In this document: piece by piece, positions 3,572 through 37,555 of the stretch
Layout: each line of letters opens with the position of its first letter
Position numbering within the stretch: the first letter of the stretch is position 1
Source: an uncultured Gammaproteobacteria bacterium
GTDB lineage: Bacteria > Patescibacteriota > Microgenomatia > 2-02-FULL-39-11
Direction of reading: 5' to 3'
Assembly: GCA_964354025.1 (NCBI GenBank)
Contig: CAYGXQ010000001.1
Location: 5,963-69,962 of the forward strand
DNA length: 64,000 nt
Notes under the pieces: generated by a model
What the model was told of the DNA's origin: nothing
The model's database searches: none
The model's input: only the letters and a program-made list of their open reading frames with translations
Translations under genes and position numbers: made by a program

Positions 3572-5002
3572 TTATAGTAAAAGAAAATGAGAGAGTGGAA
3601 TATTAACTGCTGTTTTACTTTCGTTTATTGATAAAGGTGATTTTGATACAACTAATCCGTATTTAGATTTTACACTCTTAGCAGTGTTATTTATTTGGGT
3701 AAATCCTTTTTTTCCGTATCCTACTTCTAATATAATATTTTGTTCATATAAACGGATAATAAAATCAGCTCCACCCGCTGCACTATCATAGGTAAGTGAG
3801 GCGTTTTTATTAACCAGACACCTTGTAAGATAAAGCCCTACCGTATCCTCCAACAACTTTCCCATATACATGTCTTGTCCGATGATATTTCCTACAAAGT
3901 TATAGTACATTGACCTAAAAGCCGGAGAAGCAAAAAGATATTTCGACGGCTTTCTCACTTGAGTTGCATGAGCTCCGTAAGGAAAGACTCTAAGCACTGT
4001 TTCTGTTTTCTCCAGCACATTTAATACCTGGGTAAGAGTTAATCTATCTATATCTAAATCGGGAGCTAAATTAGTAATGCTTAAAATATCGGTGGCGGCA
4101 ACCGTATATAAAATTTCGGGAATCTTTGAGATAATTTCATTTCTAAACTGCCCAAGTTGGGCAATATCCATACTTACCACTCTGTCTAATATCTTTTTTA
4201 TTTGGTCATAAACCAATCCCTCATTTTTCAACTTTACGGCAAACGGTAATGTTCCATATTTCATATATCTGTCTACCTCCAATCTCTCAATACCCATCCA
4301 GTACTGTTTTACTTCATTCTCCAGTATTTTTATTTGGTTAAATACTTCCTCAGATGTATTTGATTCGAAGACAGCCTTCCTTAATTTACCGGATAGTCCT
4401 TTTATTTCAAACTTGTTATCTTTAATTTTGATATATTCAGTAAAACTCATCGGATATAGCTTTTCAAAAATCACGCGTCTTGCTACATCAGGATTAGTTT
4501 GAAGCGTAACAGCAGAAGAGCCTGTTGCGAAAATGAAGACTTTTTTTGACCTGTCAAATATAGTTTTAAGGGTAATTGCCCATTTATTGTCATACTGCAC
4601 CTCATCAAGGAAAAGTACGACCGGTTTATCCAATCTTTCAAAGACGCTTCCCAAAATTTCTTCATAAGCGGACAACACATCGGAAAGCGTGACGCCTATA
4701 ATTTGGGTTATTTGGTCTACTGATAGAAAAAGTTTATTTACCCCAGGTTGAATAGTTTCATAAAATAGTTGAGAAAGAAGAGTTGTTTTCCCTACACCCC
4801 GAAATCCGGATATAGCTAACCAGCGAATTTCCGTATTATCCTGCCGAAAATCATTGTAATATTTATTTAGCTTCACATAACAATTGCGCTTAGGATTTTT
4901 GTTATTTTGTTCATCATATACATAGGCTCTGGCCCTGAAGTTTGCTTGAGCTATTTGTTCCTGAAGATATTTGAGAATAAGGTCTTTCTTCTCAGTAGTC
5001 AT
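3572..5002 (-). CDS. AAA-superfamily ATPase with DUF4143 (COG1373-like), paralog 1
   Basis: 476 aa. Walker A GFRGVGKTTL and Walker B LFLDEVQY. Paralogous to the genes at 13284 and 61119. Confidence 0.75.
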   Translation of the reverse strand: MTTEKKDLILKYLQEQIAQANFRARAYVYDEQNNKNPKRNCYVKLNKYYNDFRQDNTEIRWLAISGFRGVGKTTLLSQLFYETIQPGVNKLFLSVDQITQIIGVTLSDVLSAYEEILGSVFERLDKPVVLFLDEVQYDNKWAITLKTIFDRSKKVFIFATGSSAVTLQTNPDVARRVIFEKLYPMSFTEYIKIKDNKFEIKGLSGKLRKAVFESNTSEEVFNQIKILENEVKQYWMGIERLEVDRYMKYGTLPFAVKLKNEGLVYDQIKKILDRVVSMDIAQLGQFRNEIISKIPEILYTVAATDILSITNLAPDLDIDRLTLTQVLNVLEKTETVLRVFPYGAHATQVRKPSKYLFASPAFRSMYYNFVGNIIGQDMYMGKLLEDTVGLYLTRCLVNKNASLTYDSAAGGADFIIRLYEQNIILEVGYGKKGFTQINNTAKSVKSKYGLVVSKSPLSINESKTAVNIPLSHFLLL

Positions 5003-13283: not shown

Positions 13284-14567
13284 TTAAGATAAATAATTAT
13301 TATCAATTACCCACTTATAAACAGGGATTACTTTTATAATCTGTTTCTTATCCGGTATTTCCTGCTCGGTATTATAAGTCAATATCAAACCGCTGGTTAC
13401 TTTTAATTCTTCCATTGCCTGCTTTAGACTGTCGATCTCTCTTTTCTTCGTCATTTCATCATGTAAATCCCAACATACCTGAATCAGCGCTTTTTTCCTG
13501 TTTGGCAGTTTAATCAAAAAATCAATTTCTTTATTATTCCCGGTTTTATAAAAATAGGTTTCACAACCTTTTCTTAATAACTCCAGAAAAACGCACTGTT
13601 CCATAATTCTTCCCTTATCTTCTGAAAATCTGAAGGAGACGGTATTTGCCAGTCCGCAATCAACGGAATATATCTTTTTGCTAGCTTTTTGTTGAAACTT
13701 GAGAGAATAGGAAAATTGAGACAGTTCAAACGTTAAAAATGCTTCATTGAAATAATTCAGATAATCAGAAATAGTTTCAAAAGAAAGGGAAAAAGTTTTT
13801 TTCAGTGATTCTATAGAAACAGTTTTTGCGGAGTTGGTAATAAGAAATATTCCCATTTTTTCCAGAGTATCTTTTTGCCGCACATCATATCTCATAACAA
13901 TATCTTTCTGGATGATATCAAAATAATATTGTTTTAATAGAGAAAGATTTCCTGTTTTGACTATTTCAGGAAATCCGCCGATTAACAGATATTCATCAAA
14001 ATTTTTAAGTAAAGTTTTTTCCTTGAGTATCAAATCCTTTTTACTTTCTACTTTTATTTCCTTAAAAGATAGAAATTCGCTGAAGGATAAAGGCAGTACC
14101 GAATATGAGATATGCCTGCCGGTAAGCAGAGTGGATAATTCCCGGCTTAACAATTTTGAAGAGGAACCGGTAAGAAAAATTTTATAATTCCCGCCGTCTC
14201 TTAATTTTCTCACCGCGCTTTCCCAATGATTCACGGCGTGGATTTCATCAAAGAAAAGATATTTCAGATTTTGACTGAAATATTCTTTCTGGACTGAGAT
14301 CAATTCTTCTATAACTTCAGGTGAATTATGGGAAACAAAATAAGGATCTTCAAAATTGATAAACAGAAAATCATCAGTGAGTTTTAATTTTTTGATCAGC
14401 AGTTTCAGAATTGATGACTTACCGCTTCTTCTGGGACCAATAATGTCGATCGCTTCCTTGCTTTTATAATCGATATGATCCACAACAGGACGATAATGTA
14501 GGTCTTCCTCATAAGCAGTCTTTTTCCAGAAGTCTATAATTTTGACCAATTGTTGGGTATCATACAT
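13284..14567 (-). CDS. AAA-superfamily ATPase with DUF4143, paralog 2
   Basis: Walker A GPRRSGKSSIL and Walker B LFFDEIH. The architecture matches the genes at 3572 and 61119. Confidence 0.75.
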   Translation of the reverse strand: MYDTQQLVKIIDFWKKTAYEEDLHYRPVVDHIDYKSKEAIDIIGPRRSGKSSILKLLIKKLKLTDDFLFINFEDPYFVSHNSPEVIEELISVQKEYFSQNLKYLFFDEIHAVNHWESAVRKLRDGGNYKIFLTGSSSKLLSRELSTLLTGRHISYSVLPLSFSEFLSFKEIKVESKKDLILKEKTLLKNFDEYLLIGGFPEIVKTGNLSLLKQYYFDIIQKDIVMRYDVRQKDTLEKMGIFLITNSAKTVSIESLKKTFSLSFETISDYLNYFNEAFLTFELSQFSYSLKFQQKASKKIYSVDCGLANTVSFRFSEDKGRIMEQCVFLELLRKGCETYFYKTGNNKEIDFLIKLPNRKKALIQVCWDLHDEMTKKREIDSLKQAMEELKVTSGLILTYNTEQEIPDKKQIIKVIPVYKWVIDNNYLS

Positions 14568-14626: not shown

Positions 14627-15922
14627 TTACTTCATCCGCTTCTGGAGGTCTGATTCGACTGTCTGGCGGTCTTCTCCGAATTTCTTTTGGGATTGGATTT
14701 TAAACTCCTCAACTTTCGCTTTGTCAGGTTTATTTTCCGGTAAATTTTGTTCAAAATTGACCGGTTCTTCTTTAATGGCGACATTTCCCTCCTGAAGCGT
14801 TTTGAGATAAGCCTGGTATTTTTTAAGGAGACAAAGTTTGTCGACCGTGATATTTTGGGAATGAAATTCGGGTGCAACTACCTGAGCCTCTTCCGTTGTT
14901 TGTCTGAAAGAGACAAGCGTACCGACTTTTGATAAAGCTCTTTTAAGCGGAAGAGACGCTTCAGAGATTTTATTGGTCGTCAGAGTAAGGTTAATGCCGT
15001 ATCTTCGGTTTTCCATTAATAAATCGCACATTAAGGTTGTTGGCCAGGCTGAAGCTTCATCTATATAAAGATTAACGATTGGATTGCCGGCGGAATGTTC
15101 CAAATAATTGATGAGCTTAAAAAGAAGGATAGTAGTAATGATTTTATTGACATCGCTATTTTTCTTGAGGTTTTTGAAATCAAAGAGAATGATTTGATAA
15201 TTTGAAAAAAGTGACGGAAAAGAAAAGGTTGATTTTGGTTGTCCCAGAATATAGCGCATGGATTTATCGGTCACAAACAGACCGAGTTTTGAAACGATAT
15301 AATCCAATACTTCTGATTTATGAAAGTCAGAGGTTTGGGCGACCTGCTTATTCCAGTAATTCAGGACAATAGGATCCTGCACTTTCGGTAAAATATTTTT
15401 TAAGTACGAAGCATCCGTCAAACAGCGGAGAAGTTCGACAAAAGAAGCATTTTCGTCGTACAGAATTGTTAAAATGGCATTTCTGACCGCGTGTTCGAAA
15501 CGCGGTCCGATGACGCCGGTATGTTTCGGGTCATACAAATCATACATGAGGCTGATCAGGATATTGGCGATTTGTTGTCTGTTTTTCTCGTCTTTTTCTT
15601 CAAACAGATTAAGGCCAACAGGAAAGTCATTATTGCCCAGGTCCAGATAAGCGATTTTTGGCAACGTTTCGTTATCAGCACTGGTAATAATTTCTTCAGC
15701 CAGATCGCCATACTGATCGAATACGACAATGGGACAGGAGGAACGGATATCCTGATTGATTAAATTAAAAAAATATCTGGAAACACCGACTCCGGGAATA
15801 CCGGTGACAAGGATATTTCTTGACCGGTCGTCCGGGGACAAAAAAAGATTTTTAAAAATTTCCAGACCGTTAGTTGGATTATTCATATATTTATATACTA
15901 ACAAATTGGTTTTATTATTCAA
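14627..15922 (-). CDS. P-loop NTPase of the HerA/FtsK/VirD4-like (DUF87-type) class, with an atypical Walker A
   Basis: Walker B LYIDEASAW. Walker A reads GIPGVGVS, with Val in place of the canonical Lys. No TM segments. Confidence 0.5.
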   Translation of the reverse strand: MNNKTNLLVYKYMNNPTNGLEIFKNLFLSPDDRSRNILVTGIPGVGVSRYFFNLINQDIRSSCPIVVFDQYGDLAEEIITSADNETLPKIAYLDLGNNDFPVGLNLFEEKDEKNRQQIANILISLMYDLYDPKHTGVIGPRFEHAVRNAILTILYDENASFVELLRCLTDASYLKNILPKVQDPIVLNYWNKQVAQTSDFHKSEVLDYIVSKLGLFVTDKSMRYILGQPKSTFSFPSLFSNYQIILFDFKNLKKNSDVNKIITTILLFKLINYLEHSAGNPIVNLYIDEASAWPTTLMCDLLMENRRYGINLTLTTNKISEASLPLKRALSKVGTLVSFRQTTEEAQVVAPEFHSQNITVDKLCLLKKYQAYLKTLQEGNVAIKEEPVNFEQNLPENKPDKAKVEEFKIQSQKKFGEDRQTVESDLQKRMK

Positions 15923-21637: not shown

Positions 21638-21733
21638 GTCATTCCGACCGATTCCACGATAGTGGATGAGTGGAGGAATCTTCCCCAGTTGGAAGATCCC
21701 TCGGATCCGCCAGCTGGCGGACTCGGGATGACA
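21638..21733. repeat. MITE-like element copy E1 (imperfect TGTCAT...ATGACA terminal inverted repeats, internal hairpin)
   Basis: A 45-nt core is near-identical to the copy at 33706-33815. The ends are AGTCATTCCGAC / TCGGGATGACAT. Confidence 0.5.
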
Positions 21734-22877
21734 TAAGATACTTTAAAGTATTGCTTTGGGGTGATTCATTTACTCGAAAACAGCGGAGGTAGGGGATATA
21801 GAAAGTAAATAGCCGATTCCCAATTTTCCGGTAATTTATCTGGCACTTCAGATAATCCCCAAAAACTATCTCGTACGGTGTCGGTACGGGTATGGAAACG
21901 GTCGGAGTGGGAGTCAGCGTCGGCGTCTCTATCGATTGGGGTGTAGGAGTAGTGGTAGGAGTAATTGTTGGTGAAACCGTCGGAGTAACAGTCGGCGTTG
22001 GAGTTTGAGTAATAGTTGGGGTGATAGTAGCAGTTGGCGTTAGTGTTTGAGTTGCGGTTGGAGTAGCGGTCATTGTCGGAGTTGGAGTTTCCGTTGGAGT
22101 AACGGTTACAGTTGGCGTAATGGTTGGTGTTACAGTCGGCGTTTCTGTAGGAGTGGGAGTTTGGGTGACAGTCGGGGTAACCGTTGGCGTTGTAGTAGGA
22201 GTTTCTGTCGGTGTTTCTGTTGGCGTTATAGTCGGTGTTACTGTCCCTTCAGGCGGCTCTTGGGGACTGCTGGCATTTTGCGGATCGGATATTGCCCGAG
22301 TGACAAAATCATTTGCGTTATTATCAGAATCTTCCCCGTTTCCGGCAAATTCTTCAAGACCGCCAGGTTTTCGTTCGATACTGCCATTTGCAGTCGGATT
22401 GGTTGGAAAAGGCGCACTCTCAAAATTTTCAGCGGTACCAAATCCCACTTCATCAATAATTGAATCAGTTTGGTTCGTAAGAAATATCGTGTTATTAGGA
22501 GCGAGGATATATGAACCAGAGTTAGAATAAGTAATATCTGGAGTAACCGCTCCATCGTAAGTTGGTGAAGAATAAGTTATCAGGAAATAACTACGCGCAT
22601 TGATAGAAGTTTGTGAAGGAAGTGTGATAATGTCATAAAATGTTGTTCCGCTAGCTGACTTTTTTCTTATTTTCCATCCACTAATATCTTCCGTTTGGCT
22701 CATTGGATTATAAAGTTCGATAAATTCGTCATTAGCAGTCGCGCCAGCAATTTGTATTTCTGAAATGACGACATGGCCGGCGGCGGAAAGGACATTTTGA
22801 GGGAAGAATTTAATGAGAGTTAAAAAAACACCAAAAAGAAAACAAAAAGAAAGAGCGGGCAGGTATTCTTTTTTCAT
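21639..22877 (-). CDS. Secreted lamin-tail-domain (LTD) protein with a long Thr-Pro repeat linker
   Basis: Signal peptide; LTD motif [23 protein letters not shown]...WKI; about 110 residues of TPT(E/V/I)TP repeats. The annotated C-terminus runs into the MITE-like element. Confidence 0.65.
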
Positions 22878-27987: not shown

Positions 27988-28027
27988 TAACTTCTCCATT
28001 GTAATTATTCAGTTCTTCCCAAAAACA

Positions 28028-28128
28028 ATGTCATTGCGATCCCGATGGAAATCGGGAGAAGCAATCCCGTGATGCTGCAATAATTCCTGCGGGATCGCCA
28101 CGGCCAGTCGGACTGGCCTCGCGATGAC
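28028..28128. repeat. MITE-like element copy E4 (TGTCATTGCGA...TCGCGATGACA)
   Basis: 11-nt terminal inverted repeats. Internal blocks GAAGCAATCCCG and GCCACGGC are shared with the copy at 45933-46002. Three internal hairpins. Confidence 0.5.
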
Positions 28129-28205
28129 ATATTTACTGGGACATACTGAATAGATACCCTCCATTCCATTGACTATCCGTTTATATTCCCTTACCATGAA
28201 ATTAT

Positions 28206-31200
28206 ATGAGTTCACCGGAACACGGACATCATGGAGGAGACGCCAAGCCGGATTTGATGAAAAGGCTGGCTCAATTTTTTAGGGCGCTTTTTCAAAATAA
28301 AGCGGAGAAAGAGATGGCTGAAAGGGCAGCCGCGGGAGAAATCGCTAAGCGCGATTACGCCAAACACGAAACTGAAGCAAAATGGGAAGAGGAAAGAAGA
28401 AAACGGGAAGAAAGAGACCGGACACGAAAATACCATGAAGCCAGAAGCGCGGAAGTGGCTGAAGCCGAGGTGGAAGTAACCAGACGGCAAAACGCACAGA
28501 AAGTGAGAGATAAGCTGCAAGATGTAATCAATGATACCTCCGGTCAAAACGATATCGAAGGTTCAAGATATCTAATGGCGGAGATAAGAGGAAATACACA
28601 TGTACAAGAAGCCTTGAAGCATCTAATTGACGAAAGTCCCAACGCTAGGGAAGTCATCAGGGAGTTTTTGACGCAAGATAAGCGGGTTCACGGGAGAAGT
28701 CGGGAACTGATCAAACTGACACAGGCGCTTTTGTATGAAGCCCAAAAAACCGGTGACATAGGCAACTTGGATTCTTTTATTACCCAAGTAAAAAAACAAA
28801 TTGACGGACTTTTGATAGATGAATATTCCGCGGCAAATAGAGCAGCTAGGGGAAGGAGGGGGCAGGGATTTAATACTTTCAAGGAATTCTTAGAGGAGGA
28901 ACCGGGAATCGTGATGACTGATGACGAACAAAAAGAACTACAAACGCCTGTTTATTATAAAGATAAAGATAATAAAGATACAGATAGAGTCAATGAAACG
29001 GAAACTACGGAGAAATGGAAAAGAATAGTTCAGGAAATGGTGACAGAACCTCGAGTTGGTACCGTCCGAGCTTTTACTGCTGCGAAAGTAGATAAATTTG
29101 CCGAGAATTATGGCGGCAATATTCCTGACAGTCAAGTTGTCATTGATAAGATGGTGGCGCCGCTTGACCGGGTTTGGGGCGAGCTTGAAAGGAAAGATGT
29201 TGCCGGACAGTTAACGAGTGAAGATTTAATCAAATACAGCCGACAATTAGTCAGGGAAGAATCGCAGATCCGGCCAACTGATGTGGCGCCGGGAAGTGAT
29301 GCTTATTTTGCCGCTTCTCGAGCAATGGGGGATTACATGAATAATAAATTGGAAATTTTAGCCAAGAAGCTGGAAGAAAAATTAAAAGCGGAGAAAGTGG
29401 TCATGAAAGAAGGGATTAACGATGAGACGGAATTTTTGGCGGAAATGGCCAAAAGAAAAGGCCGGATAGGAGATTTGTTTGAACTTAACCCGGCGATGGA
29501 AGAACTTTTATACGGATTGGATGATAAAAGCCGTAAGTTTCGGGATAGAGTTTTTATGAATATCCACTCCAGAGTTTTATCCGATCAACGGAATTCCTCA
29601 AACGATAACTTCGGCCTTTACGAGCGGGCGGATTTTTCGACTATAATTGATCTTTTAAAAGTAGGATTGGAAAAATTTAAGGTAATGGAAACAGGCAGAA
29701 GTTTGGGTGAAACTCTAAGCGACCATTACAATAATCTCAGCAACGCCATCCGCCAGTGCCGGGACATTGATTTTTGGGCCTCCCAACCGGCTGCCAATTC
29801 GGAGAACTTCAACAAATCTCTCGGCATGTTCCAAAATGAGTATGTCAAAGAAGCTCTTAACATCCCTGGGGTGATAGTGGCTTTCCGGGCTTTTGAGGAT
29901 AATCTTCGCAGTATTATCGCTTCCAACGACGGTTATCTGCCGCCGGCTCTCATGGAATACGATGCGACCAGCGGACGCTCTTTCTGGGATAACATGTCCC
30001 GGGCACAGGTTGAGAAAATGGTCGGCATGGGAGTGGTCCCGGGTATCAAAAGAGATGAAAGAAATTATTATCTTCATGTCAGAAATAAAGACGGCTATTC
30101 AGTCGAGATGGACTTTAAAAATCCTTTGAAAAAAGAGGATGTTTCCTCCGATGAGTATCTGATGTATATGACTTTGGCCAAAGGGATCGGAATGGCCACT
30201 GCCCGGTATCTGGAAATGATTGCCCAGACGAAAGTCCCGGGGTCGGACAATCCGACGCTGGGTTTGGATACTTTCCACAGTATGCCTTATGAGGGAATGG
30301 CGAAAGCGATGAACTATTTTAATGTCTATATTGAGAAATGGAAAATGGGTTCATATAAATACGGCCATCTCATGAATATGCTGATACCGGATGAAAAAAA
30401 TAGGATGACAATAGACCAAAATGATTCTACTTCAGCCATCCGCGCTTATATGGCTTACCAGGACGGCACTTTTGAGGAAAAATTCGGCACTGATGCCAAA
30501 AGATTTATTGACCTGACTAATTTCTCCGGCATTTCCTCGGCTATAGGCAAAGACACAACCTGGCGGCAATATGACATGACGCTTGACTGGGAGGACCGGA
30601 AAAAAGAATTTTTAGGCGGTCCGACGCAGCTGGTTTTAAGCAAAAGATACGCGGAGGAGAAAGTCAAAGACCATCTGGTAGTGGCCAAATATCGGGAGCA
30701 ATACCGGCAGGAACTAATCAGCCAAAAATCCGGACTGCCGACCAGCGGCGCCGGTTTTGATAAGCTTTGGCGGGAATACGGGAAAAATAGATATGCTTAT
30801 AACATTGAAAAGGAATGGGAAAAACTTAACGGGCTTGACCCTAAAAAAGGCAGACAGCATACGGCTTTATGGCATCAGACAGACCATTTGATAGGAGCAT
30901 ATAGAAATGCCTTGAAGGCGAGAGTCTGGGTAGAGATGGCCATGAGAAATCCTCTGGTGGTGGCTCACAGCTTAAAAGTCGACCTTCCTTTGGTTGGGGG
31001 AGAGAAACGGAAGAAACAGATGACTCTTCATACCATGCTGGTACAGGATATTTTAGGCATTCCGCCGGAAGATACGAAATACGGTGAGGAAGTCGGTAAA
31101 TCCGCTACCAGAAAATCACCGACAAAACAGCAAGAACAATACATGATTGACGTCATGAATCTGGAGTGGGATCTGGCGGCAGTACGGGAGAAAGCCATCA

Positions 31201-32180
31201 ATGGTGAAGATACAGAATATGTGAGAGATCTGACCGATAAGGATTTTAAGGTTATTGGAGATGAAAAAAGGAAAGAACAGGCTTTGGCTTACTGGAGAAG
31301 AGTGAAAAAAGTAATTTTAGGCAGCGAAGATTCGGCTGAAGCGGATAGATTGATTAAACATTTTGGTTTGGGTCTGATGGAAAATCAGGTGGATTACGAA
31401 TGGGATCATCATCACATCCATGAATTGATGACCGATAAAAAGGACGGCTTTTTGGATAAATTAGATAAACAGTTAAATCAAAGTCCGATGTTTACGATTG
31501 TCGGTTCAGACGGCCAACAGATCGAAATCCCTTTTCTTTTGAAAAAAGCGGTGAAGATGGAGCCGGAGTGGATTTTAGGAACTGACGATATGGTTTTTAA
31601 CAAAATGGATATCCTCAATCTCGGTTCAAGACAGCTGATAAGAAGAGGAGGCGATATTGCCGCCCACCAGGCCGGCGGCGATGCCGTTATTCAGTATCTC
31701 CTGTATGGTTTAACGCCAACGCCAAATAAGGAAGAAGCGGTGAAACTGCTTGCCAAACTTCGTGATGCCTACTCCGGCGATATGATTGAAATCGGTTGGT
31801 CAGTTGGATCCAATCTTGCTTACATGACTGACCGGCTTTATGCCTGGGATTGGAATCATTATGGGCAGTCGGTCGCGCAAAGAGATGTCTGGGGTACAAG
31901 AAGAGGAGTGGCCTCCTGGTTAGCCAATGAAAGACGGGAATGGTGGGATACTTTGGAACACGCTGATGTTTTTCCGCCGAACGCGCATTCTTACTTTTAT
32001 AACATCGATGATAAAGTAAATATCCATACAATGAGAAAATGGTGCCACGCGGATAATTCGGATGTCTGGAAAGAAATCATTGCCCTGGGAGTTTTACTGG
32101 CTTTGGCGATCACCATCTACCGTGCCTTCACCGCCCCAAGTGAAGAAGAAGAGGGCGGCGGTAAAGGCGGACACCATTAG
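28206..32180 (+). CDS. Giant hypothetical protein (1324 aa), with a charged coiled-coil-like N-terminus, one C-terminal TM helix, and an EEEEGGGKGGHH tail
   Basis: A single long ORF with CDS-like composition; no catalytic motif recognised. Convergent with the VirB6-like gene. Confidence 0.6.
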   Translation: MSSPEHGHHGGDAKPDLMKRLAQFFRALFQNKAEKEMAERAAAGEIAKRDYAKHETEAKWEEERRKREERDRTRKYHEARSAEVAEAEVEVTRRQNAQKVRDKLQDVINDTSGQNDIEGSRYLMAEIRGNTHVQEALKHLIDESPNAREVIREFLTQDKRVHGRSRELIKLTQALLYEAQKTGDIGNLDSFITQVKKQIDGLLIDEYSAANRAARGRRGQGFNTFKEFLEEEPGIVMTDDEQKELQTPVYYKDKDNKDTDRVNETETTEKWKRIVQEMVTEPRVGTVRAFTAAKVDKFAENYGGNIPDSQVVIDKMVAPLDRVWGELERKDVAGQLTSEDLIKYSRQLVREESQIRPTDVAPGSDAYFAASRAMGDYMNNKLEILAKKLEEKLKAEKVVMKEGINDETEFLAEMAKRKGRIGDLFELNPAMEELLYGLDDKSRKFRDRVFMNIHSRVLSDQRNSSNDNFGLYERADFSTIIDLLKVGLEKFKVMETGRSLGETLSDHYNNLSNAIRQCRDIDFWASQPAANSENFNKSLGMFQNEYVKEALNIPGVIVAFRAFEDNLRSIIASNDGYLPPALMEYDATSGRSFWDNMSRAQVEKMVGMGVVPGIKRDERNYYLHVRNKDGYSVEMDFKNPLKKEDVSSDEYLMYMTLAKGIGMATARYLEMIAQTKVPGSDNPTLGLDTFHSMPYEGMAKAMNYFNVYIEKWKMGSYKYGHLMNMLIPDEKNRMTIDQNDSTSAIRAYMAYQDGTFEEKFGTDAKRFIDLTNFSGISSAIGKDTTWRQYDMTLDWEDRKKEFLGGPTQLVLSKRYAEEKVKDHLVVAKYREQYRQELISQKSGLPTSGAGFDKLWREYGKNRYAYNIEKEWEKLNGLDPKKGRQHTALWHQTDHLIGAYRNALKARVWVEMAMRNPLVVAHSLKVDLPLVGGEKRKKQMTLHTMLVQDILGIPPEDTKYGEEVGKSATRKSPTKQQEQYMIDVMNLEWDLAAVREKAINGEDTEYVRDLTDKDFKVIGDEKRKEQALAYWRRVKKVILGSEDSAEADRLIKHFGLGLMENQVDYEWDHHHIHELMTDKKDGFLDKLDKQLNQSPMFTIVGSDGQQIEIPFLLKKAVKMEPEWILGTDDMVFNKMDILNLGSRQLIRRGGDIAAHQAGGDAVIQYLLYGLTPTPNKEEAVKLLAKLRDAYSGDMIEIGWSVGSNLAYMTDRLYAWDWNHYGQSVAQRDVWGTRRGVASWLANERREWWDTLEHADVFPPNAHSYFYNIDDKVNIHTMRKWCHADNSDVWKEIIALGVLLALAITIYRAFTAPSEEEEGGGKGGHH

Positions 32181-32196
32181 TTACTACTAGTTACTA

Positions 32197-33726
32197 CTAC
32201 TTGTGAGTTCCTTTATCTCCACCTCCGAAGATACCGCTGGCCATCATTTTCAACTGGCCCATATAGTAGAACTGGCTGGCCGCGCCCATGGCCGTCTGGA
32301 AAGAACCGGTCAAAGGCGCCATGATGGTGCCCGGAGAAACAGGCAGGGCCGGTTTAGGCGCGAACATCTTTTTGATCGAGGCAATCAAAGTCGGGGCCAT
32401 GAAAAGGACACCGATGCCGATAAAAGCGGAAAAAACAGGAGGAGTCCCTATGCCCAAAAGAGGCGGTTGCCAGGCCGTGTTTTCCGGATTTTGGGAAGTC
32501 AAAAACATGGCAAACATCAAGACGGCGGCGGTGGCCGGGAAGACGACCAGATTAGCAATGACATTTAAAATCCAGTCGGTAAAAGCGGATTTGCCGGGGA
32601 CAGCCTCCGCCAGAAGCTGGATCGGGCCAATGATCAAAGAAATCATCACCTGGATATAGGAATTCACCAGAAGAAGTACCAGTCTGATGAAAGTAAAAAG
32701 CAGTCCCAGAGCCAAAATCAATATAATAATAGCTGATGGAGCAGCAGCGACAGCTGCTGTGCCCAAACCGATAGTAACGAGACCGGGAATCATAGAAATG
32801 AGTCCAATTACAACAGAGATACCGCCCAGTTGACCTCCATAACCTTTGATAAAATCGTCTACAGATCGGAAGCCGCCGCTGAAAACCGATCCGGCTAAAG
32901 TGCCTAACCCGCCGGTCATATACTGGCTTTGCAGTTCCGCCACTTTTGAAGCAAAACCGCCGCCCATGCCCTGAGCCATGACAGAGATCAGGATAGCCAT
33001 GACCAGATACATCATGTCAATCAGAAAACCGACGATCGGATAAGAAAGGGTGATCAGGACTAAAGTCAGAATGATTTTTGGTAAAGCCGCCTGAAGAGAG
33101 ATGACTGTTTTCGGATCAATTTTCATCCGGAAGATGATCATGAAGCCGATGGCCACCATGACGATAATCAAGATAGCGTAAGCAATATTTCGGGAAGTTT
33201 TCCAAAGAGAAAGAAGCGGGGTCATGGCGGCAAAACCGATCCCTTGGGCAAAAACAGGCTTGATAAAGCCGGCGTTGGCCAGATAGTCACGGGCATAATA
33301 GGCAAAACTGGCCGGAGGATTAGCGTAAATGGATGCTATAACTGTGCTGATATTTCCCAGAGCCGTTTGCTGCGGATTACAATTGTTATCATCAGGAAGG
33401 CAGACTAACAAACTAGTAATAGCGGCCACTTGGACATTAGCGATAAAGATGCTATGAGGGACCGCAGAAATATCAGTTTGTCCTTCTTTGGCTTTTTCCT
33501 CAGTAATATTTAAGTCGTTGACGATTTCCTTCAAACCCATCCTCCAATATCTTGTAGCGGTAGCGGCCGTAGCTTCTTTGGGGAATGAGAAGAATGGAAT
33601 TGCGGCAATAAATATCAAAAGTAAAAATCTGTAGATTTTGGGCAGACGGAGCATATTTTTATTATTCTGCTTTTTGACGGTGGTGTCAATCCTGTATTGT
33701 GTTATTGTCATCCCGACCGATTCCAC
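32197..33726 (-). CDS. VirB6/TrbL-like polytopic membrane protein (putative type-IV-secretion channel component)
   Basis: Signal/TM followed by an extracytoplasmic segment, then 8 or more TM helices and a Gly-rich tail. It sits directly downstream of six VirB2/TrbC-like genes. The true start is probably the ATG at 33711. Confidence 0.45.
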   Translation of the reverse strand: MESVGMTITQYRIDTTVKKQNNKNMLRLPKIYRFLLLIFIAAIPFFSFPKEATAATATRYWRMGLKEIVNDLNITEEKAKEGQTDISAVPHSIFIANVQVAAITSLLVCLPDDNNCNPQQTALGNISTVIASIYANPPASFAYYARDYLANAGFIKPVFAQGIGFAAMTPLLSLWKTSRNIAYAILIIVMVAIGFMIIFRMKIDPKTVISLQAALPKIILTLVLITLSYPIVGFLIDMMYLVMAILISVMAQGMGGGFASKVAELQSQYMTGGLGTLAGSVFSGGFRSVDDFIKGYGGQLGGISVVIGLISMIPGLVTIGLGTAAVAAAPSAIIILILALGLLFTFIRLVLLLVNSYIQVMISLIIGPIQLLAEAVPGKSAFTDWILNVIANLVVFPATAAVLMFAMFLTSQNPENTAWQPPLLGIGTPPVFSAFIGIGVLFMAPTLIASIKKMFAPKPALPVSPGTIMAPLTGSFQTAMGAASQFYYMGQLKMMASGIFGGGDKGTHK

Positions 33727-33816: not shown

Positions 33817-34137
33817 TCAAGGTGAAGAAGGAATTTCGAAAATCAGGACATTGACGCCGGTGAAGTATTGGATGATTTTAAAAATCAGAAAAGCGACGGC
33901 CATCAGAGCGATGCCGGCAATGGCATAAGTCATCGTTTGTTGGGCGGAAGCGGTTGCTTTATGGTCACCGCCTGAAGTGAGATACTTGAAGCCGCCGATG
34001 ATAAGCATAACCATCAGAGCCAGCCCGGCTAAACTGACGGCGACAGTCAAAATATTGGAAAAAACAATTTCCAGACATTTGAGGGTGGGAACATCAACTC
34101 CGCCCACCGTCTGCATGCAGGAAGTCCAGTCTTTCAT
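33817..34137 (-). CDS. TrbC/VirB2-like small membrane protein (pilin-like), paralog 6 of 6
   Basis: TM1 - SGGD(H/K) motif - amphipathic helix - TM2 architecture, shared by all six tandem genes. Confidence 0.5.
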   Translation of the reverse strand: MKDWTSCMQTVGGVDVPTLKCLEIVFSNILTVAVSLAGLALMVMLIIGGFKYLTSGGDHKATASAQQTMTYAIAGIALMAVAFLIFKIIQYFTGVNVLIFEIPSSP

Positions 34138-34156
34138 GAGGGTTTAAATCTTCTGT

Positions 34157-34537
34157 TTAATAACCCGACGGCAACTTGATACCTCTCAGGATCGAGATAC
34201 CGAAGAATTGTTCGATGACGATCATCAGTCCCCAAGCGGCAAAGACGATGAAAAGGCCGAGGATGGCCGCCTGGATTTTGTGCTGGGCGGCTTCCACTTT
34301 ACTCTTGTCTCCACCGGAAAGGATCCATTCAACACCGGCGATAAGAAGATAGATGAAAGTCGCCAGAGCAGCCATTACAAGGATAAGACCGACCGCACCG
34401 CTGACTAATTTACCCAAATCGCCTGTTCTCAGATTTGAAGGACTAGGGATGATAATAGGAATGTCTTCAGCGAAAGCGGTTGTTTTTGAGAACAAAACCA
34501 GCGATAAAGTAGAAAGACCGGCGATAATTTTTTTCAT
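34157..34537 (-). CDS. TrbC/VirB2-like small membrane protein, paralog 5
   Basis: N-terminal signal peptide; LSGGDKSKVEAAQHKIQAAILGLFIVFAAWG. Confidence 0.5.
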   Translation of the reverse strand: MKKIIAGLSTLSLVLFSKTTAFAEDIPIIIPSPSNLRTGDLGKLVSGAVGLILVMAALATFIYLLIAGVEWILSGGDKSKVEAAQHKIQAAILGLFIVFAAWGLMIVIEQFFGISILRGIKLPSGY

Positions 34538-34596
34538 AAAATTTTTCCTCCCCTTATAAAATTATTATGACAATGTTTTGACTTGTTTGTCAAGCT

Positions 34597-34953
34597 CTAA
34601 AATAAAGTCGGCAGTTTTATCTGAAAACCGCCGCCTCCGCCAAGAGGCGAAATGCCCAAGAATTGCAAAACAACAACATACAATCCCCAGGATGCAAAAA
34701 GAATGAAGAGTCCGACGATGGCATTGGTAATTCTTTTTTGCGCTCCTTCCAGCGCTGCCTTATCTCCGCCTGAAGAAATCCATTCTAAACCGCCCTGGAG
34801 GAGATTGACAAAAGCCCAGATAGAGCCGGCGGTAAGCATGACGCCAACCAAAGCGGCAAAAAATTTGGCAAAAATCTCCGGCGCTTTTTCTGGATTTTGG
34901 CCGGAAATACCGGTGACAACTGGATTGGTGATTGGTGAGATTTGATAAATCAT
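34597..34953 (-). CDS. TrbC/VirB2-like small membrane protein, paralog 4
   Basis: ISSGGDKAALEGAQKRITNAIVGLFILFASWG. Confidence 0.5.
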   Translation of the reverse strand: MIYQISPITNPVVTGISGQNPEKAPEIFAKFFAALVGVMLTAGSIWAFVNLLQGGLEWISSGGDKAALEGAQKRITNAIVGLFILFASWGLYVVVLQFLGISPLGGGGGFQIKLPTLF

Positions 34954-34955
34954 AG

Positions 34956-35369
34956 TTAAAATCCGATATTCTGTAAAACTGCTCCCGGATTTAAGATGTT
35001 CAAACCGATGATTTTGCCGATCAATCCGGTAATTACCCAGGCGGAAACAACAATGATCAAGCCGATTAGGGCATTAACGATTTTATTACGGGCTTCTTCA
35101 AGATTATGCTTGTCGCCGCCCGCATTCATCCAGCCGTAACCGGCGATAATTATCTGGAAGATAAACCAGAGCGCGGCAACTATTGTTAAGAAACCTATGA
35201 TGCCGCTGAGAGCTTTGTTTAACTGGTTGCCGACTTTGGCGCTGTCGCCAATACCCAAATTGCACATCGCTTTTGCGATCTCTCCGAAACCATCACCGCA
35301 ACCCAAACCTTTGCTTGAAGGCGGAAGCGGGGCGGCCGCGTAGACAGCACTGATTAATTTATTTATCAT
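34956..35369 (-). CDS. TrbC/VirB2-like small membrane protein, paralog 3
   Basis: MNAGGDKHNLEEARNKIVNALIGLIIVVSAW. Confidence 0.5.
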   Translation of the reverse strand: MINKLISAVYAAAPLPPSSKGLGCGDGFGEIAKAMCNLGIGDSAKVGNQLNKALSGIIGFLTIVAALWFIFQIIIAGYGWMNAGGDKHNLEEARNKIVNALIGLIIVVSAWVITGLIGKIIGLNILNPGAVLQNIGF

Positions 35370-35740
35370 TGTAATTTCGGTTGTAAAATAGCCGTCGGAT
35401 CTTTGAAAAACAATATACCGAATACCGCCGCCAGCAAAAATGAAGCAACGATAATCACCAATCCCAAGAGAGTTTGCCAGATCCGGTCCAAGGCTTTGGT
35501 GACTTTTTTCGCGTCGCCGCCGGCCGACATATAATCAAAGCCGGCAATAATCAGATTGACGAATGAATAAAGTCCGGCGACAACAAAAACCAGTTTAAGG
35601 ATGGAATTCAGTAAAACCATGATACCGGTTAGCTCTCCGCCTGATCCAATCCCTTCAGGCATATAGGGAGGACGGGAAATGCAACCGATCGGGTCATTCG
35701 GATCGCAGGCGGCCAGAAGGGTGGTTAAAAGATAAATCAT
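35366..35740 (-). CDS. TrbC/VirB2-like small membrane protein, paralog 2
   Basis: MSAGGDAKKVTKALDRIWQTLLGLVIIVASF. Confidence 0.5.
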   Translation of the reverse strand: MIYLLTTLLAACDPNDPIGCISRPPYMPEGIGSGGELTGIMVLLNSILKLVFVVAGLYSFVNLIIAGFDYMSAGGDAKKVTKALDRIWQTLLGLVIIVASFLLAAVFGILFFKDPTAILQPKLQ

Positions 35741-35744
35741 ATTG

Positions 35745-36053
35745 CTAGCCTAAAATACCGCTTAGAGCTCCTCCAGTGATGAAATTTATTATTTGTAAAA
35801 TCCAATAGGCTCCAAACATAATAGTAAAGCCGATGATGGCAAAAGTCAAAATATTTTTACGCGATTCGGCTGCGTGTTCGTCGCCGCCGGCGTTCATAAT
35901 CACCCCTAAACCGGTAATGACGATGATAAAAAAGAAAATGACTCCGCCGACGATCAATATTTTCGGCAGCAGCGAGGACACCAGTGAGGAAAGGGTCGGA
36001 AAATTTTTGGCAAGCGGCCACTCTTTACTTATGTCCACCTGTGCGAGAAGCAT
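35745..36053 (-). CDS. TrbC/VirB2-like small membrane protein, paralog 1 (first gene of the array)
   Basis: MNAGGDEHAAESRKNILTFAIIGFTIMFGAY. Confidence 0.5.
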   Translation of the reverse strand: MLLAQVDISKEWPLAKNFPTLSSLVSSLLPKILIVGGVIFFFIIVITGLGVIMNAGGDEHAAESRKNILTFAIIGFTIMFGAYWILQIINFITGGALSGILG

Positions 36054-36150: not shown

Positions 36151-36699
36151 ATGTTCGACGAAAAATTGCTAGTCAAAGACATTTTGGCGGGAAACGAAAA
36201 AACCTTAAGGTTTTTTTACCGGCATTTCAAAAATCCCCTTATGAGTTATATAAAAAACAAAGTCGGTAATCCCCAGGATGCCGAAGAAATTATGCAGGAC
36301 GTCCTTCTTTCGACCATTGAAGCTTTCCGGGATTTCACTTTCCGCTGCCGGATTTTTACCTATATTTGCAGTATTGCCAATCACAAAGTGATTGATTATT
36401 ACCGCCGGAAGAAAATAAAAAACATCGTTTTCTCCCGGATCAAAGACGTGGAGCCGTTGATAATTACCCTCTTAAGCCCGGAAACTACTTTCGACGACGA
36501 GCTTTTGAAGGAAAAAATAACCCTGACATTTGGCCGGTTGACACCGCTGTACCGTAAAATTTTAACCTTGAAATATATTGACGGCTATTCCGTTTCCGAA
36601 ATTGCCCGGATGCTCTCCCTTTCTTTCAAAAGCGTAGAGAGCCATCTTTTCCGGGCCAGACGAACGTTTGCGATAATTTTTTCCTATGAAAGAAGATAA
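36151..36699 (+). CDS. ECF-type RNA polymerase sigma-70 family factor
   Basis: Region 2 (FYRHF...DAEEIMQDVLL) and region 4 (YSVSEIARMLSLSFKSVESHLFRARR). Divergent from the pilin array. Confidence 0.8.
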   Translation: MFDEKLLVKDILAGNEKTLRFFYRHFKNPLMSYIKNKVGNPQDAEEIMQDVLLSTIEAFRDFTFRCRIFTYICSIANHKVIDYYRRKKIKNIVFSRIKDVEPLIITLLSPETTFDDELLKEKITLTFGRLTPLYRKILTLKYIDGYSVSEIARMLSLSFKSVESHLFRARRTFAIIFSYERR

Positions 36700-36919
36700 A
36701 ACCTATCAGTTGCTGGTTCAAAGAATGCATGAGGTAGCCCTGTTGCCGACACAAAACGTCGGTTTCTTCACTCCTTTATATAAAAAAATAGCGCCAAAAC
36801 TGAAATTCTCACCCTGGAAAAGCGCCACAGTCATCTCCGTTACGGCCGCCGTCTGTCTGTATATTTTGTTTGGAGCAATTTTGGTTAGATTGGCATCTCT
36901 TCTTCAATTCGGTTTTTAA
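36686..36919 (+). CDS. Putative membrane-anchored anti-sigma factor
   Basis: 77 aa with a single TM, overlapping the sigma factor stop codon. The call rests on position and architecture alone. Confidence 0.3.
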   Translation: MKEDKTYQLLVQRMHEVALLPTQNVGFFTPLYKKIAPKLKFSPWKSATVISVTAAVCLYILFGAILVRLASLLQFGF

Positions 36920-36925
36920 CCCATT

Positions 36926-37555
36926 ATGGCTGATTTTGTCATCAAAATACTCAGACAATCTTTCCTGTTCGGTAGAAATGTTGCCGGCTGTTTGAACAAT
37001 CCTTATATTACTTTTCGGAAAATAGCGCTGGAAAAGAATAATTTTTGGCCGACCGCATTTATTACCCTTTTCTCGCTAGCCTATTTTGAATTTGCCGGTA
37101 TCATCAGAGCCGGTTTAGGCAACCCCATTTTTTTGACGTCGAAATTTAACAGCTTGGTATTGACTTCCTCCATCTGCTTTATCGGCTGCATTTCGCTTTT
37201 TTATCTTTTGGGAAAGATAATGAAGAAGACCGGCAGTTTCAGGACTTTGACCGTGCTTTGGTCTTACTCCCTTTTGCCGACCTTAATTTGGTTTTTTACC
37301 ACTTCCTGTTTGTATCTTATTTTGCCGCCGCCGCGGACGATGAGCATCCTGGGTAAAATCTATAGCGTATTCTATATCGCTTTTTCCATCGCTCTTCTTT
37401 ATTGGAAAATCATCCTTTACTATTTGACCTTGAGGTTCGGCTTGAAAATGGAAATCGGGAAAATTATGCTTGTCTCGGTTGTCTTTGTTGCCTATCTTGG
37501 ATTATTTGCATTGATTACATACCGTTTGGGAGTTTTCCGGATTCCGTTTATATGA
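36926..37555 (+). CDS. Hypothetical polytopic membrane protein
   Basis: 5 TM helices; the stop overlaps the hmgA start (ATGA). Confidence 0.35.
   Translation: MADFVIKILRQSFLFGRNVAGCLNNPYITFRKIALEKNNFWPTAFITLFSLAYFEFAGIIRAGLGNPIFLTSKFNSLVLTSSICFIGCISLFYLLGKIMKKTGSFRTLTVLWSYSLLPTLIWFFTTSCLYLILPPPRTMSILGKIYSVFYIAFSIALLYWKIILYYLTLRFGLKMEIGKIMLVSVVFVAYLGLFALITYRLGVFRIPFI

What the first reader, a model, noticed from the sequence alone, without database searches (positions are those of the whole stretch)
28206..32180. 1324-aa orphan giant protein, convergent with the pilin/VirB6 module and preceded by a MITE-like element
A single ORF of 3975 nt has no recognisable enzymatic motif. It has a highly charged, heptad-like N-terminal ~100 aa (EKEMAERAAAGEIAKRDYAKHETEAKWEEERRKREERDRTRKYHEARSAEVAEAEVEV). 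It ends in one TM helix plus an acidic/Gly tail (EEEEGGGKGGHH). Its stop lies 16 nt from the VirB6-like stop on the opposite strand, and the spacer contains a tandem TAGTTACTAC duplication. Proteins of this size adjacent to secretion machinery are often substrates, adhesins or tape-measure-like scaffolds.
Basis: inference. Interest (0 to 1): 0.65.

Follow-up and report, generated by a model that had tools for sequence, protein, structure and literature searches.

The report
Giant tail-anchored partner of CPR T4SS
The 1324-aa ORF is a real, conserved gene for a membrane-anchored protein with no known fold, always paired with the channel-like membrane protein of the type IV secretion/pilin locus of Microgenomates-group ultrasmall bacteria, which makes it a likely undescribed and unusually variable part of that poorly understood machine.

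The parts
28206..32180 (+). Giant gene, 1324 aa plus TAG stop; type-A member of an unannotated family of tail-anchored proteins
   Evidence: ORF list and translation; full-length homologs with the same start M-x-x-(P)EHG and the same end; 122 cluster representatives in the family
28206..29417 (+). Variable N-terminal region (aa 1-404): N-terminal PEHGHHGG motif (aa 4-11), amphipathic helix aa 16-30 (hydrophobic moment 0.71), E/R/K-rich charged helix aa about 33-95
   Evidence: Alignment A1 shows low conservation before about aa 410; charge and heptad analysis; hydrophobic moment, and PE within the first 10 residues in 20 of 51 members. This region was not structure-modelled.
29418..32066 (+). 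Conserved core (aa 405-1287): mostly alpha-helical with small beta elements and no known fold; family motifs RDIDFWASQP, SNDGYLPP, LAKG, SMPYEG, NFSGISSAIGK, MRNPLVVAH, RDLT..DF, GTDDM, LNLGSRQLIRRGGDIAAH
   Evidence: AlphaFold2 model on the 51-sequence alignment A5: pLDDT 89.7, pTM 0.91; invariant and near-invariant columns; no PDB or BFVD structural match
32067..32129 (+). Single C-terminal transmembrane helix (aa 1288-1308, WKEIIALGVLLALAITIYRAF), with Glu1290 conserved in at least 90% of the family
   Evidence: Only Kyte-Doolittle peak in the protein, 2.09 over 19 aa; present in nearly all full-length family members; E1290 at least 90% conserved
32130..32177 (+). Short acidic Gly/His tail (aa 1309-1324, TAPSEEEEGGGKGGHH), predicted extracytoplasmic
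   Evidence: Conserved across the main family; tails are 6-24 aa, mean net charge -1.9 against +0.3 for the 15 residues before the helix; 86% of 51 members have the more positive side N-terminal
32178..32197 (.). Tandem 10-nt duplication TAGTTACTAC x2, running from the giant gene's stop codon to the first base of the neighbour's stop codon; 16-nt spacer
   Evidence: Sequence; not conserved in 16 other loci; no terminator-like hairpin here
32197..33726 (-). Convergent partner: polytopic membrane protein (509 aa as listed from GTG; the true start is probably Met25, MLRLPK, about nt 33654), occupying the VirB6 position
   Evidence: Translation and hydrophobic segments; homologs tail-to-tail with the giant gene in all 20 distinct loci with downstream sequence; family consensus starts MMxxLPK; no TrbL/VirB6 Pfam or PDB-sequence hit
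33817..36053 (-). Array of six VirB2-like pilin paralogs (33817-34137, 34157-34537, 34597-34953, 34956-35369, 35366-35740, 35745-36053)
   Evidence: PF18895 hits, 2 of 6 above the gathering score and the rest just below; two-helix sequences with a shared GGD loop; arrays of 2-7 hits in related loci with enough downstream sequence
36151..37555 (+). ECF-type sigma factor (36151-36699), 77-aa membrane protein (36686-36919) and Yip1-domain membrane protein (36926-37555), conserved next to the pilin array in most loci; membership in the system is uncertain
   Evidence: Pfam; recurrent in related loci
28001..28157 (.). Genome-specific structured imperfect palindrome in the 218-nt spacer between the hexokinase-like gene and the giant gene; a promoter-like TTGACT-17-TACCAT lies downstream at 28169-28197
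   Evidence: Inverted repeats; folding z = -8.06; promoter scan; relatives have only about 40 nt here; single copy

Best explanation
The ORF encodes a member of an undescribed protein family of about 900-1350 aa. The members with a source name come from Gottesmanbacteria/Microgenomates/Patescibacteria MAGs; the window itself is placed in Gottesmanbacteria by its closest relatives. The protein has no signal peptide. A roughly 1285-aa body, with a variable charged N-terminal part and a compact, mostly helical core of no known fold, is predicted to stay in the cytoplasm. It is held at the membrane by one C-terminal TM helix with a short acidic tail outside, i.e. a tail-anchored protein. The gene is the fixed convergent partner of the polytopic membrane protein that occupies the VirB6 position in the origin-proximal T4SS/VirB2-pilin locus of these bacteria. 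I propose that it is a lineage-specific accessory subunit that docks on the cytoplasmic face of that polytopic/pilin module, as an adaptor or platform between the membrane channel and the cytoplasmic machinery or cargo. Because the giant gene alone occurs in discrete, deeply diverged types within otherwise congruent loci, it more likely sets specificity (which cargo, partner or host) than performs an invariant mechanical step. Shown: gene reality, architecture, family extent, lack of known fold, conserved gene pairing, T4SS neighbourhood, dimorphism. Inferred: topology, physical interaction, role.
For: A real gene under constraint: at least 40 intact full-length homologs, core 55-63% identical among close relatives. 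Family architecture is conserved: no hydrophobic segment until a single C-terminal TM helix, then a 6-24-aa net-acidic tail. Confident model (pLDDT 89.7, pTM 0.91) with no structural relative and no sequence family. Gene pairing: in all 20 distinct loci with downstream sequence, the giant (+) is followed by a homologous polytopic gene (-). The stop codons are -4 to 41 nt apart in 19 of the 20. This holds in the distant subfamily, where the pilins and VirB4/TraC-like/PrgI have moved to the other side. T4SS context: VirB4, TraC-like and PrgI lie within about 10 kb in L014, L015, L023, L024, L026 and L027, a T4CP-like ATPase in L014, L023, L024 and L026, and an M23 peptidase in L026. Pilin genes are present in every locus with enough flanking sequence. 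Literature: Patescibacterial T4SS genes lie near dnaA, VirB2 arrays are abundant in Microgenomatia, and VirB6 homologues are 'scarce' there, 'suggesting extreme sequence divergence' (PMC12102498); the T4SS cluster with its pilin array is essential in S. epibionticum (PMC10633639). Dimorphism: giant core type A vs B is 24-28% identical against 42-62% within a type, while the polytopic partner, hexokinase-like, sigma, HMGR, thiolase and pilins show no A/B split.
Against: No experiment and no interaction prediction links the giant to the polytopic protein. The two genes are convergent, so they are not co-transcribed. The wider region is also syntenic with unrelated housekeeping genes (nadD-like, NAD synthase, mevalonate pathway), so adjacency alone is weaker evidence than in a shuffled genome. 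No VirB4 or PrgI lies within the 64-kb window; there is only a degenerate T4CP-like ORF at 14627-15922. Topology is predicted from charge bias only, and R/K residues sit directly after the helix. Many conserved polar residues (D520, K659, R914, D1128, R1142, R1146, D1150) could equally mark an enzyme active site. Discrete sequence types are more typical of host-interaction or effector proteins than of machine subunits. Loci were retrieved through the giant gene, so I could not test whether the polytopic gene ever occurs without it.
Confidence: 0.55

Rival explanations
1. It is a T4SS substrate: a giant tail-anchored effector or 'translocated anchor'. It would be recognised through its Glu-rich C-terminal tail, exported (possibly in two steps through an inner-membrane intermediate) and inserted by its C-terminal helix into the membrane of the host bacterium. 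The discrete sequence types would reflect host range.
For: No signal peptide and a single C-terminal TM helix followed by an EEEE block within the last about 15 residues, conserved across the main family. E-block Glu-rich C-terminal signals, tail-anchored TM effectors and two-step export of highly hydrophobic TM effectors are documented for T4SSs (PMC12981334). The gene is encoded inside or next to T4SS loci. Only the giant gene is dimorphic in a congruent locus, as expected for a host-interaction protein. Patescibacterial T4SSs lack relaxases and are thought to move proteins or other molecules (PMC12102498 and PMC10633639).
Against: It is a single-copy positional ortholog present in every locus sampled, whereas effectors usually vary in presence and location. 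The whole 900-aa core keeps one fold and motif set across all types, unlike modular effectors. The TM helix is strongly hydrophobic (KD 2.09), while the review finds that most TM effectors are only moderately hydrophobic. The E-block receptor DotM belongs to type IVB systems, not the MPF-FATA-like system of Patescibacteria. If the helix inserts N-in/C-out, the acidic block is on the wrong side for a cytoplasmic receptor.
Confidence: 0.2
2. It is a membrane-anchored cytoplasmic protein with a function unrelated to secretion (for example an enzyme or cell-envelope or division scaffold). It sits next to the pilin module only because this origin-proximal region is syntenic throughout the lineage.
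For: Unrelated genes are equally syntenic: nadD-like, NAD synthase or hexokinase-like upstream, and ECF sigma, Yip1 and mevalonate genes downstream. The orientation is convergent, so there is no shared transcript. Many invariant polar and Gly/Pro residues suggest a catalytic or ligand site. In the window's own lineage no VirB4 or PrgI is nearby.
Against: The giant-polytopic junction is the one adjacency that survives where the rest of the neighbourhood changes: upstream genes differ among loci, and the pilins and VirB4 cluster are relocated in L025, L027, L028 and L029. The stop-to-stop distance stays at -4 to 41 nt in 19 of 20 loci. No housekeeping family matches at any sensitivity. A housekeeping protein would not be expected to show a 57% vs 26% type split between equally related genomes.
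Confidence: 0.13
3. It is a cell-surface adhesin or a tape-measure-like extended scaffold.
For: Large size, location beside a pilin array and a C-terminal membrane anchor.
Against: No N-terminal signal peptide or other hydrophobic segment, no LPXTG, and an acidic rather than basic tail. No internal repeats. A compact, confidently packed fold (pTM 0.91) rather than a fibre or a single long helix. No PHROG or BFVD match and no phage genes nearby.
Confidence: 0.03

Closest known systems
Patescibacterial (CPR) MPF-FATA-like T4SS with VirB2-like pilin arrays (Quinonero-Coronel et al. 2025, PMC12102498; Wang et al. 2023, PMC10633639)
   Same: The same kind of locus: chromosomal and origin-proximal, with arrays of sequence-divergent PF18895 pilins. 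VirB4, TraC/TrsD-like and PrgI (and in most of these loci a T4CP-like ATPase) lie nearby in related genomes, and no relaxase was seen.
   Different: Neither paper describes a roughly 1300-aa tail-anchored protein as part of the system. The large unknowns of the S. epibionticum cluster are a peptidase-domain protein (SEML1_0007) and polytopic proteins with helical domains (SEML1_0011, SEML1_0013), not single-helix tail-anchored proteins. The exhaustive profile search returned no polytopic relatives apart from one repetitive outlier.
Extended VirB6 proteins (polytopic region plus a large hydrophilic domain; PMC12857230)
   Same: Taken together, the 509-aa polytopic protein and the giant hydrophilic, membrane-anchored protein resemble an extended VirB6 split into two polypeptides. 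The review notes that the role of the hydrophilic domains is unknown.
   Different: There is no detectable sequence similarity of either protein to VirB6/TrbL. The two genes are convergent, so this is not a simple gene fission. The giant core has no ARM-like or other recognised fold.
Bacterial tail-anchored secretion-system subunits such as TssL/DotU of T6SS/T4BSS
T4SS transmembrane effectors with E-block signals (PMC12981334)
   Same: A Glu-rich block near the C-terminus, a TM segment within the last 65-70 residues, and no Sec signal.
   Different: Universal single-copy positional conservation, a very hydrophobic helix, an acidic block placed after the helix, and a different T4SS class.

Membership tests
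Tail-anchored membrane protein (architectural class) | Single TM segment within the C-terminal 65-70 residues (definition quoted in PMC12981334) | tested here: met
   The only hydrophobic peak is at aa 1288-1308 of 1324; the same holds across the family
Tail-anchored membrane protein (architectural class) | No N-terminal signal peptide or other TM segment; short translocated tail | tested here: met
   No 19-aa window with KD above 1.5 anywhere else; tails are 6-24 aa and net acidic. The actual topology was not measured.
VirB4 / T4CP ATPases | Walker A motif GxxxxGK[ST] and a P-loop NTPase domain | tested here: not met
   No Walker A; the nearest string is GISSAIGKD with the wrong spacing; no AAA/P-loop Pfam hit; no P-loop fold in the PDB searches
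Sortase-anchored (LPXTG) surface adhesin | N-terminal signal peptide, LPXTG motif, C-terminal helix followed by a basic tail | tested here: not met
   No signal peptide, no LPXTG, and the tail is EEEE-rich
Phage tape-measure protein | Phage structural gene context; extended helical or repeat architecture; match to PHROG/BFVD families | tested here: not met
   Only one sub-threshold PHROG hit of unknown function to 30 residues over the TM helix (E 0.042); no phage DNA similarity for the upstream spacer; BFVD best E 0.018 with TM below 0.1; no repeats; housekeeping neighbours
T4SS E-block transmembrane effector | Glu-rich block in the C-terminal about 20 residues | tested here: met
   EEEE at aa 1313-1316, conserved in the main family
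T4SS E-block transmembrane effector | Actual translocation by the T4SS; usually moderate TM hydrophobicity and variable gene presence | not testable with these tools
   Translocation needs an experiment. Hydrophobicity is high (KD 2.09) and the gene is present in every locus sampled, both atypical but not excluding.
VirB6/TrbL (applies to the 509-aa neighbour) | Sequence match to PF04610 TrbL/VirB6 or to solved VirB6 chains | tested here: not met
   0 of 15 family members hit TrbL/VirB6 at E up to 1; the profile against PDB sequences found nothing
VirB6/TrbL (applies to the 509-aa neighbour) | Polytopic protein (at least 5 hydrophobic helices) encoded with VirB2 pilins and other T4SS genes | tested here: met
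   About 7-9 hydrophobic segments; adjacent to pilin arrays and, in relatives, VirB4/PrgI/T4CP.
PF18895 T4SS_pilin (the six genes 33817-36053) | Score at or above the Pfam gathering threshold (26.6 bits); two-helix VirB2-like architecture | tested here: inconclusive
   Scores are 33.1, 26.5, 22.6, 41.3, 25.9 and 18.8 bits, so 2 of 6 pass and 2 miss by less than 1 bit. All six share the leader, helix, GGD loop and helix layout, and their homologs in related loci are annotated PF18895.
MITE (the upstream element 28001-28157) | Terminal inverted repeats, target-site duplication, multiple copies in the genome | tested here: inconclusive
   Imperfect 39-nt inverted arms at 74%; no direct repeat immediately flanking the arms; no second copy in the 64-kb window or in 29 related loci. 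The rest of the source genome could not be searched.

The most novel reading that the evidence does not exclude
The giant protein is delivered by the Patescibacterial T4SS into the host bacterium and tail-anchors in the host membrane. There it would act as a self-supplied receptor or conduit component for the epibiont, and its discrete, exchangeable sequence types (A and B) would determine which hosts can be colonised. This would be the first identified cargo, and the first host-range determinant, of the essential but functionally unexplained CPR T4SS.
Probability: 0.15. Interest if true: 0.9.

Novelty: new variant of a known kind. Interest (0 to 1): 0.62.

Why it matters
The T4SS of Patescibacteria is essential for epibiotic growth in the one species tested, yet what it transports and how it is built are unknown. 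In the Microgenomates group even VirB6 has not been recognised. This analysis points to two unannotated families. One is a conserved polytopic protein in the VirB6 position. The other is its obligate partner, a 1300-aa tail-anchored protein with a confidently predicted fold that matches nothing in the PDB. Both are concrete candidates for missing parts of the machine. The finding that only the giant gene switches between deeply diverged types, in otherwise congruent loci, gives a testable handle on specificity (cargo or host choice). If instead it is the system's cargo, it would answer the open question of what these T4SSs deliver.

Tried and rejected
1. Sequence family searches of the giant protein (Pfam, NCBIfam, PHROGs, PADLOC, PDB sequences; single sequence, 8 distant members, 12 members at E up to 1, and a 51-sequence profile) gave nothing but coiled-coil noise in the N-terminal region.
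2. The first AlphaFold run, on a 5-sequence alignment, was unusable (pLDDT 49.8). It was rescued with the 51-sequence alignment.
4. The search for homologous proteins with the full-length 51-sequence alignment returned only 5 proteins. My guess is that low-complexity words filled the 8000-candidate limit. The repeat with trimmed cores gave 43 hits, and every source name was 'hypothetical protein'.
It was redone with a 12-sequence subset.
6. I looked for a Saccharibacterial ortholog in the essential S. epibionticum T4SS cluster. SEML1_0007 turned out to be a peptidase-domain protein, and 0011 and 0013 are polytopic, so no counterpart was identified.
7. Internal repeats: none by self-BLAST.
8. 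A Walker-type ATPase reading was rejected.
9. For the upstream element there was no Rfam family, no phage match and no second copy.
10. Cluster look-up for source names of 10 members gave no names.


Full report
OBSERVATION. The window holds a single ATG-to-TAG ORF at 28206-32180 (+), 1324 aa. Its start is supported by homologs that begin with the same M-x-x-(P)EHG motif, and its end by a conserved helix and tail. The only hydrophobic segment in the protein is aa about 1288-1308 (Kyte-Doolittle 2.09), followed by TAPSEEEEGGGKGGHH. Its TAG lies 16 nt from the stop of the minus-strand ORF 32197-33726, and TAGTTACTAC occurs twice in tandem at 32178-32197. The N-terminal 33-95 stretch is extremely charged, up to 20 of 30 residues. 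However, only 11% of best-register a/d positions are L/I/V/M/F and i/i+4 salt-bridge pairs are dense, so it resembles an E/R/K single helix rather than a heptad coiled coil. Self-BLAST finds no internal repeats.

GENOMIC SETTING. The 64-kb window is ordinary chromosome of a CPR bacterium. It carries type III RuBisCO, an EpmA-like ligase, a hexokinase-like gene, an FeFe-hydrogenase domain, enolase, a full mevalonate pathway and histidine genes. Close relatives of the giant gene lie in MAGs named Candidatus Gottesmanbacteria or Microgenomates, which belong to the Patescibacteria group, Microgenomates group. Beyond the convergent 509-aa gene lie six PF18895 (VirB2-like) pilin paralogs, then an ECF sigma factor, a 77-aa membrane protein, a Yip1 protein and the mevalonate genes.

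NOT AN ORPHAN, BUT AN UNANNOTATED FAMILY. A word-indexed search of 5.8 billion proteins found only four full-length relatives at 48-54% identity. An exhaustive HMMER profile search of 1.84 billion cluster representatives, using residues 431-1324, found 122 proteins, 63 of them below 1e-30 and mostly 900-1350 aa. Nearly all full-length members share one architecture: no hydrophobic segment until a single C-terminal helix. In the main family the helix is followed by a 6-24-aa net-acidic tail, often with a Gly run and His. A trimmed-core search returned 43 proteins; every one that carried a source name was called 'hypothetical protein', and none had a Pfam domain. Pfam, NCBIfam, PHROGs, PADLOC and PDB-sequence searches, by single sequence, by diverse members and by profile, give nothing beyond coiled-coil noise in the N-terminal part.

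CONSERVED GENE PAIRING. I fetched loci for close relatives, for 24-30% relatives and for the most distant subfamily, at E 1e-5 to 1e-10. I scanned them with local HMMs. In all 20 distinct loci that include downstream sequence, the giant gene is followed tail-to-tail by a homolog of the window's polytopic protein (E 1e-32 to 1e-154). The distance between the two stop codons is -4 to 41 nt in 19 of the 20; the exception has a PaaX-like gene inserted. In most loci the pilin array follows directly. In the distant subfamily (L025, L027, L028, L029) the pilins, and in L027 also VirB4, TraC-like and PrgI, lie elsewhere within 10 kb, yet the giant-polytopic junction persists. In L026, L024, L023, L014 and L015 the genes for VirB4, a TraC/TrsD-like protein and PrgI (VirB3) sit immediately upstream. 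A T4CP-like ATPase accompanies them in all of these except L015, and an M23 peptidase in L026. The window's own lineage has replaced that upstream block with RuBisCO, a glycosidase and a hexokinase-like gene. It keeps only a T4CP-like ORF 12 kb away (14627-15922) whose Walker A lysine is lost.

LITERATURE. Quinonero-Coronel et al. 2025 (PMC12102498) describe the Patescibacterial T4SS as MPF-FATA-like, often near dnaA, with VirB2 arrays especially abundant in Microgenomatia. They report VirB6 homologues as 'scarce' there, 'suggesting extreme sequence divergence'. Wang et al. 2023 (PMC10633639) showed that the T4SS cluster, including its pilin array, is essential in S. epibionticum. Neither paper describes a giant tail-anchored component. 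The large unknowns in the Saccharibacterial cluster are a peptidase-domain protein and polytopic 'extended VirB6-like' proteins. A 2025 review notes that the role of the hydrophilic domains of extended VirB6 proteins is unknown (PMC12857230). The 509-aa polytopic family found here has no TrbL/VirB6 sequence signature. It is nevertheless the natural candidate for the 'missing' Microgenomates VirB6, on position and topology alone.

AN UNEXPECTED DIMORPHISM. Pairwise identities of the giant core fall into discrete types. Type A is the window plus L001, L004, L006, L007 and L012 (56-62% within the type; 82% for the L001/L012 pair). Type B is L016, L017, L018, L020 and L021 (42-58% within the type). 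Between types the identity is only 24-28%. The polytopic partner shows no such split: 41-48% across types, much the same as within them. L016 is as close to the window as the type-A loci by every flanking marker. Hexokinase-like is 67% (type-A loci 66-72%), sigma 62% (54-62%), HMG-CoA reductase 59% (55-64%), thiolase 70% (68-72%) and polytopic 52% (45-51%). Its giant, however, is 25% identical against 48-50%. Its pilins are the closest of all to the window's, with a mean best hit of 60% against 51-54% for the type-A loci with complete arrays. So only the giant gene has been replaced in place, or has kept ancient alleles, within a congruent locus.

MECHANISM, BEST READING (confidence about 0.55). 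With no signal peptide, a net-positive N-flank and a net-acidic short tail (86% of 51 members), the protein should be tail-anchored, with its large body in the cytoplasm. From general knowledge, acidic tails favour membrane-potential-driven, YidC-type insertion; this was not tested. Its invariant pairing with the polytopic protein, inside or beside T4SS gene sets, argues that it is a lineage-specific accessory subunit at the cytoplasmic face of the channel/pilin module. The type dimorphism suggests that it sets specificity rather than performing a fixed mechanical step. The interaction, the topology and the role are all inferred.

RIVALS. (a) A translocated tail-anchored effector with an E-block-like signal (about 0.2). 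This is supported by the conserved EEEE tail, the dimorphism and documented precedents (PMC12981334). It is opposed by universal single-copy positional conservation, one fold across all types, a very hydrophobic helix and a different T4SS class. (b) An unrelated membrane-anchored protein kept adjacent by region-wide synteny (about 0.13). Synteny of unrelated neighbours is real, but the giant-polytopic junction is the adjacency that survives rearrangement. (c) Adhesin or tape measure (about 0.03). This is contradicted by the lack of an export signal, LPXTG, repeats or phage context, and by the compact fold.

SIDE CLAIMS. The 218-nt spacer upstream holds a genome-specific, very stable imperfect palindrome at 28001-28157 (z = -8.06). 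Relatives have only about 40 nt there. The element is single-copy in everything I could search and has no Rfam match, so 'MITE' is unproven. A promoter-like site lies between it and the start codon. The TAGTTACTAC duplication is real but unique to this genome, so it is most simply a small slippage event in a very short convergent spacer.

VERDICT. The gene is genuine, and it is more interesting than 'orphan giant ORF' suggests. It belongs to a widespread but unannotated family with no known fold, tied by conserved gene pairing to the Patescibacterial T4SS/pilin locus, and it shows an unusual in-place type replacement. Function remains inferred from context. I rate it a new variant of a known kind of system, with interest 0.62.

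Noticed in passing
window 28001-28157: A genome-specific 157-nt imperfect palindrome (39-nt arms, inner three-way junction) folds at -72.7 kcal/mol, z = -8.06. It is absent from relatives, which have about 40 nt here. It is single-copy in the window and in 29 loci and has no Rfam match. It could be a MITE remnant, a terminator for the hexokinase-like gene, or a regulatory structure.
   Followed up: partly
window 14627-15922 (-): A 431-aa ORF with no Pfam hit is 28% identical over about 350 residues to the ATPase half of the T4CP-like protein of L026 (E 6e-45). Its Walker A reads GIPGVGVS instead of GKTGTGKS, so the lysine is lost, and it lacks the N-terminal half. It is probably a degenerate coupling-protein paralog.
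   Followed up: partly
window 33655-33726 (-): The listed GTG start of the polytopic ORF probably lies upstream of the true start. The family consensus begins MMxxLPK, which corresponds to Met25 (MLRLPKIY) of the listed translation.
   Followed up: partly
window 28215-28238, 32154-32177 and 32200-32226: Gly/His-rich ends recur. The giant protein starts with PEHGHHGG and ends with GGGKGGHH, and the polytopic partner ends with GGGDKGTHK. Family members commonly end in Gly runs followed by H or HH. This could reflect metal binding or a shared recognition tag; it remains unexplained.
   Followed up: no
window 36151-37555 and loci L001, L004, L007, L015, L016, L018, L024, L026: An ECF-type sigma factor, a 77-88-aa single-helix membrane protein (possibly an anti-sigma factor) and a Yip1-domain membrane protein follow the pilin array in most loci. 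They may form a dedicated regulatory module for the pilin/T4SS genes.
   Followed up: partly
L025 1093-3398 and 12092-12469; L028 4966-5427; L029 66-428 and 4099-4479: In the distant subfamily, small PF05635 (23S_rRNA_IVP) / PF22296 (bAvd) genes sit directly beside the giant gene and inside or near the pilin arrays, together with pilin-domain fusion proteins of 379-569 aa. bAvd-like proteins are accessory factors of diversity-generating retroelements, so pilin diversification by a DGR is worth checking.
   Followed up: no
window 3572-5002 (-), 13284-14567 (-), 61119-62423 (+): There are three paralogous AAA_14 + DUF4143 ATPase genes within 64 kb, an unusual density for a small genome.
   Followed up: no
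window 21639-22877 (-): A 412-aa protein carries a lamin-tail domain (PF00932, E 1.5e-15) and a weak resemblance to the extracellular nuclease ExeM N-terminus. It may be a secreted or surface nucleic-acid-binding protein.
   Followed up: no
L007 and L008 record titles: Two MAG contigs that carry type-A giant genes and the typical Gottesmanbacteria synteny are titled 'uncultured Gammaproteobacteria bacterium'. This is probably a taxonomic mislabel in the public records.
   Followed up: no
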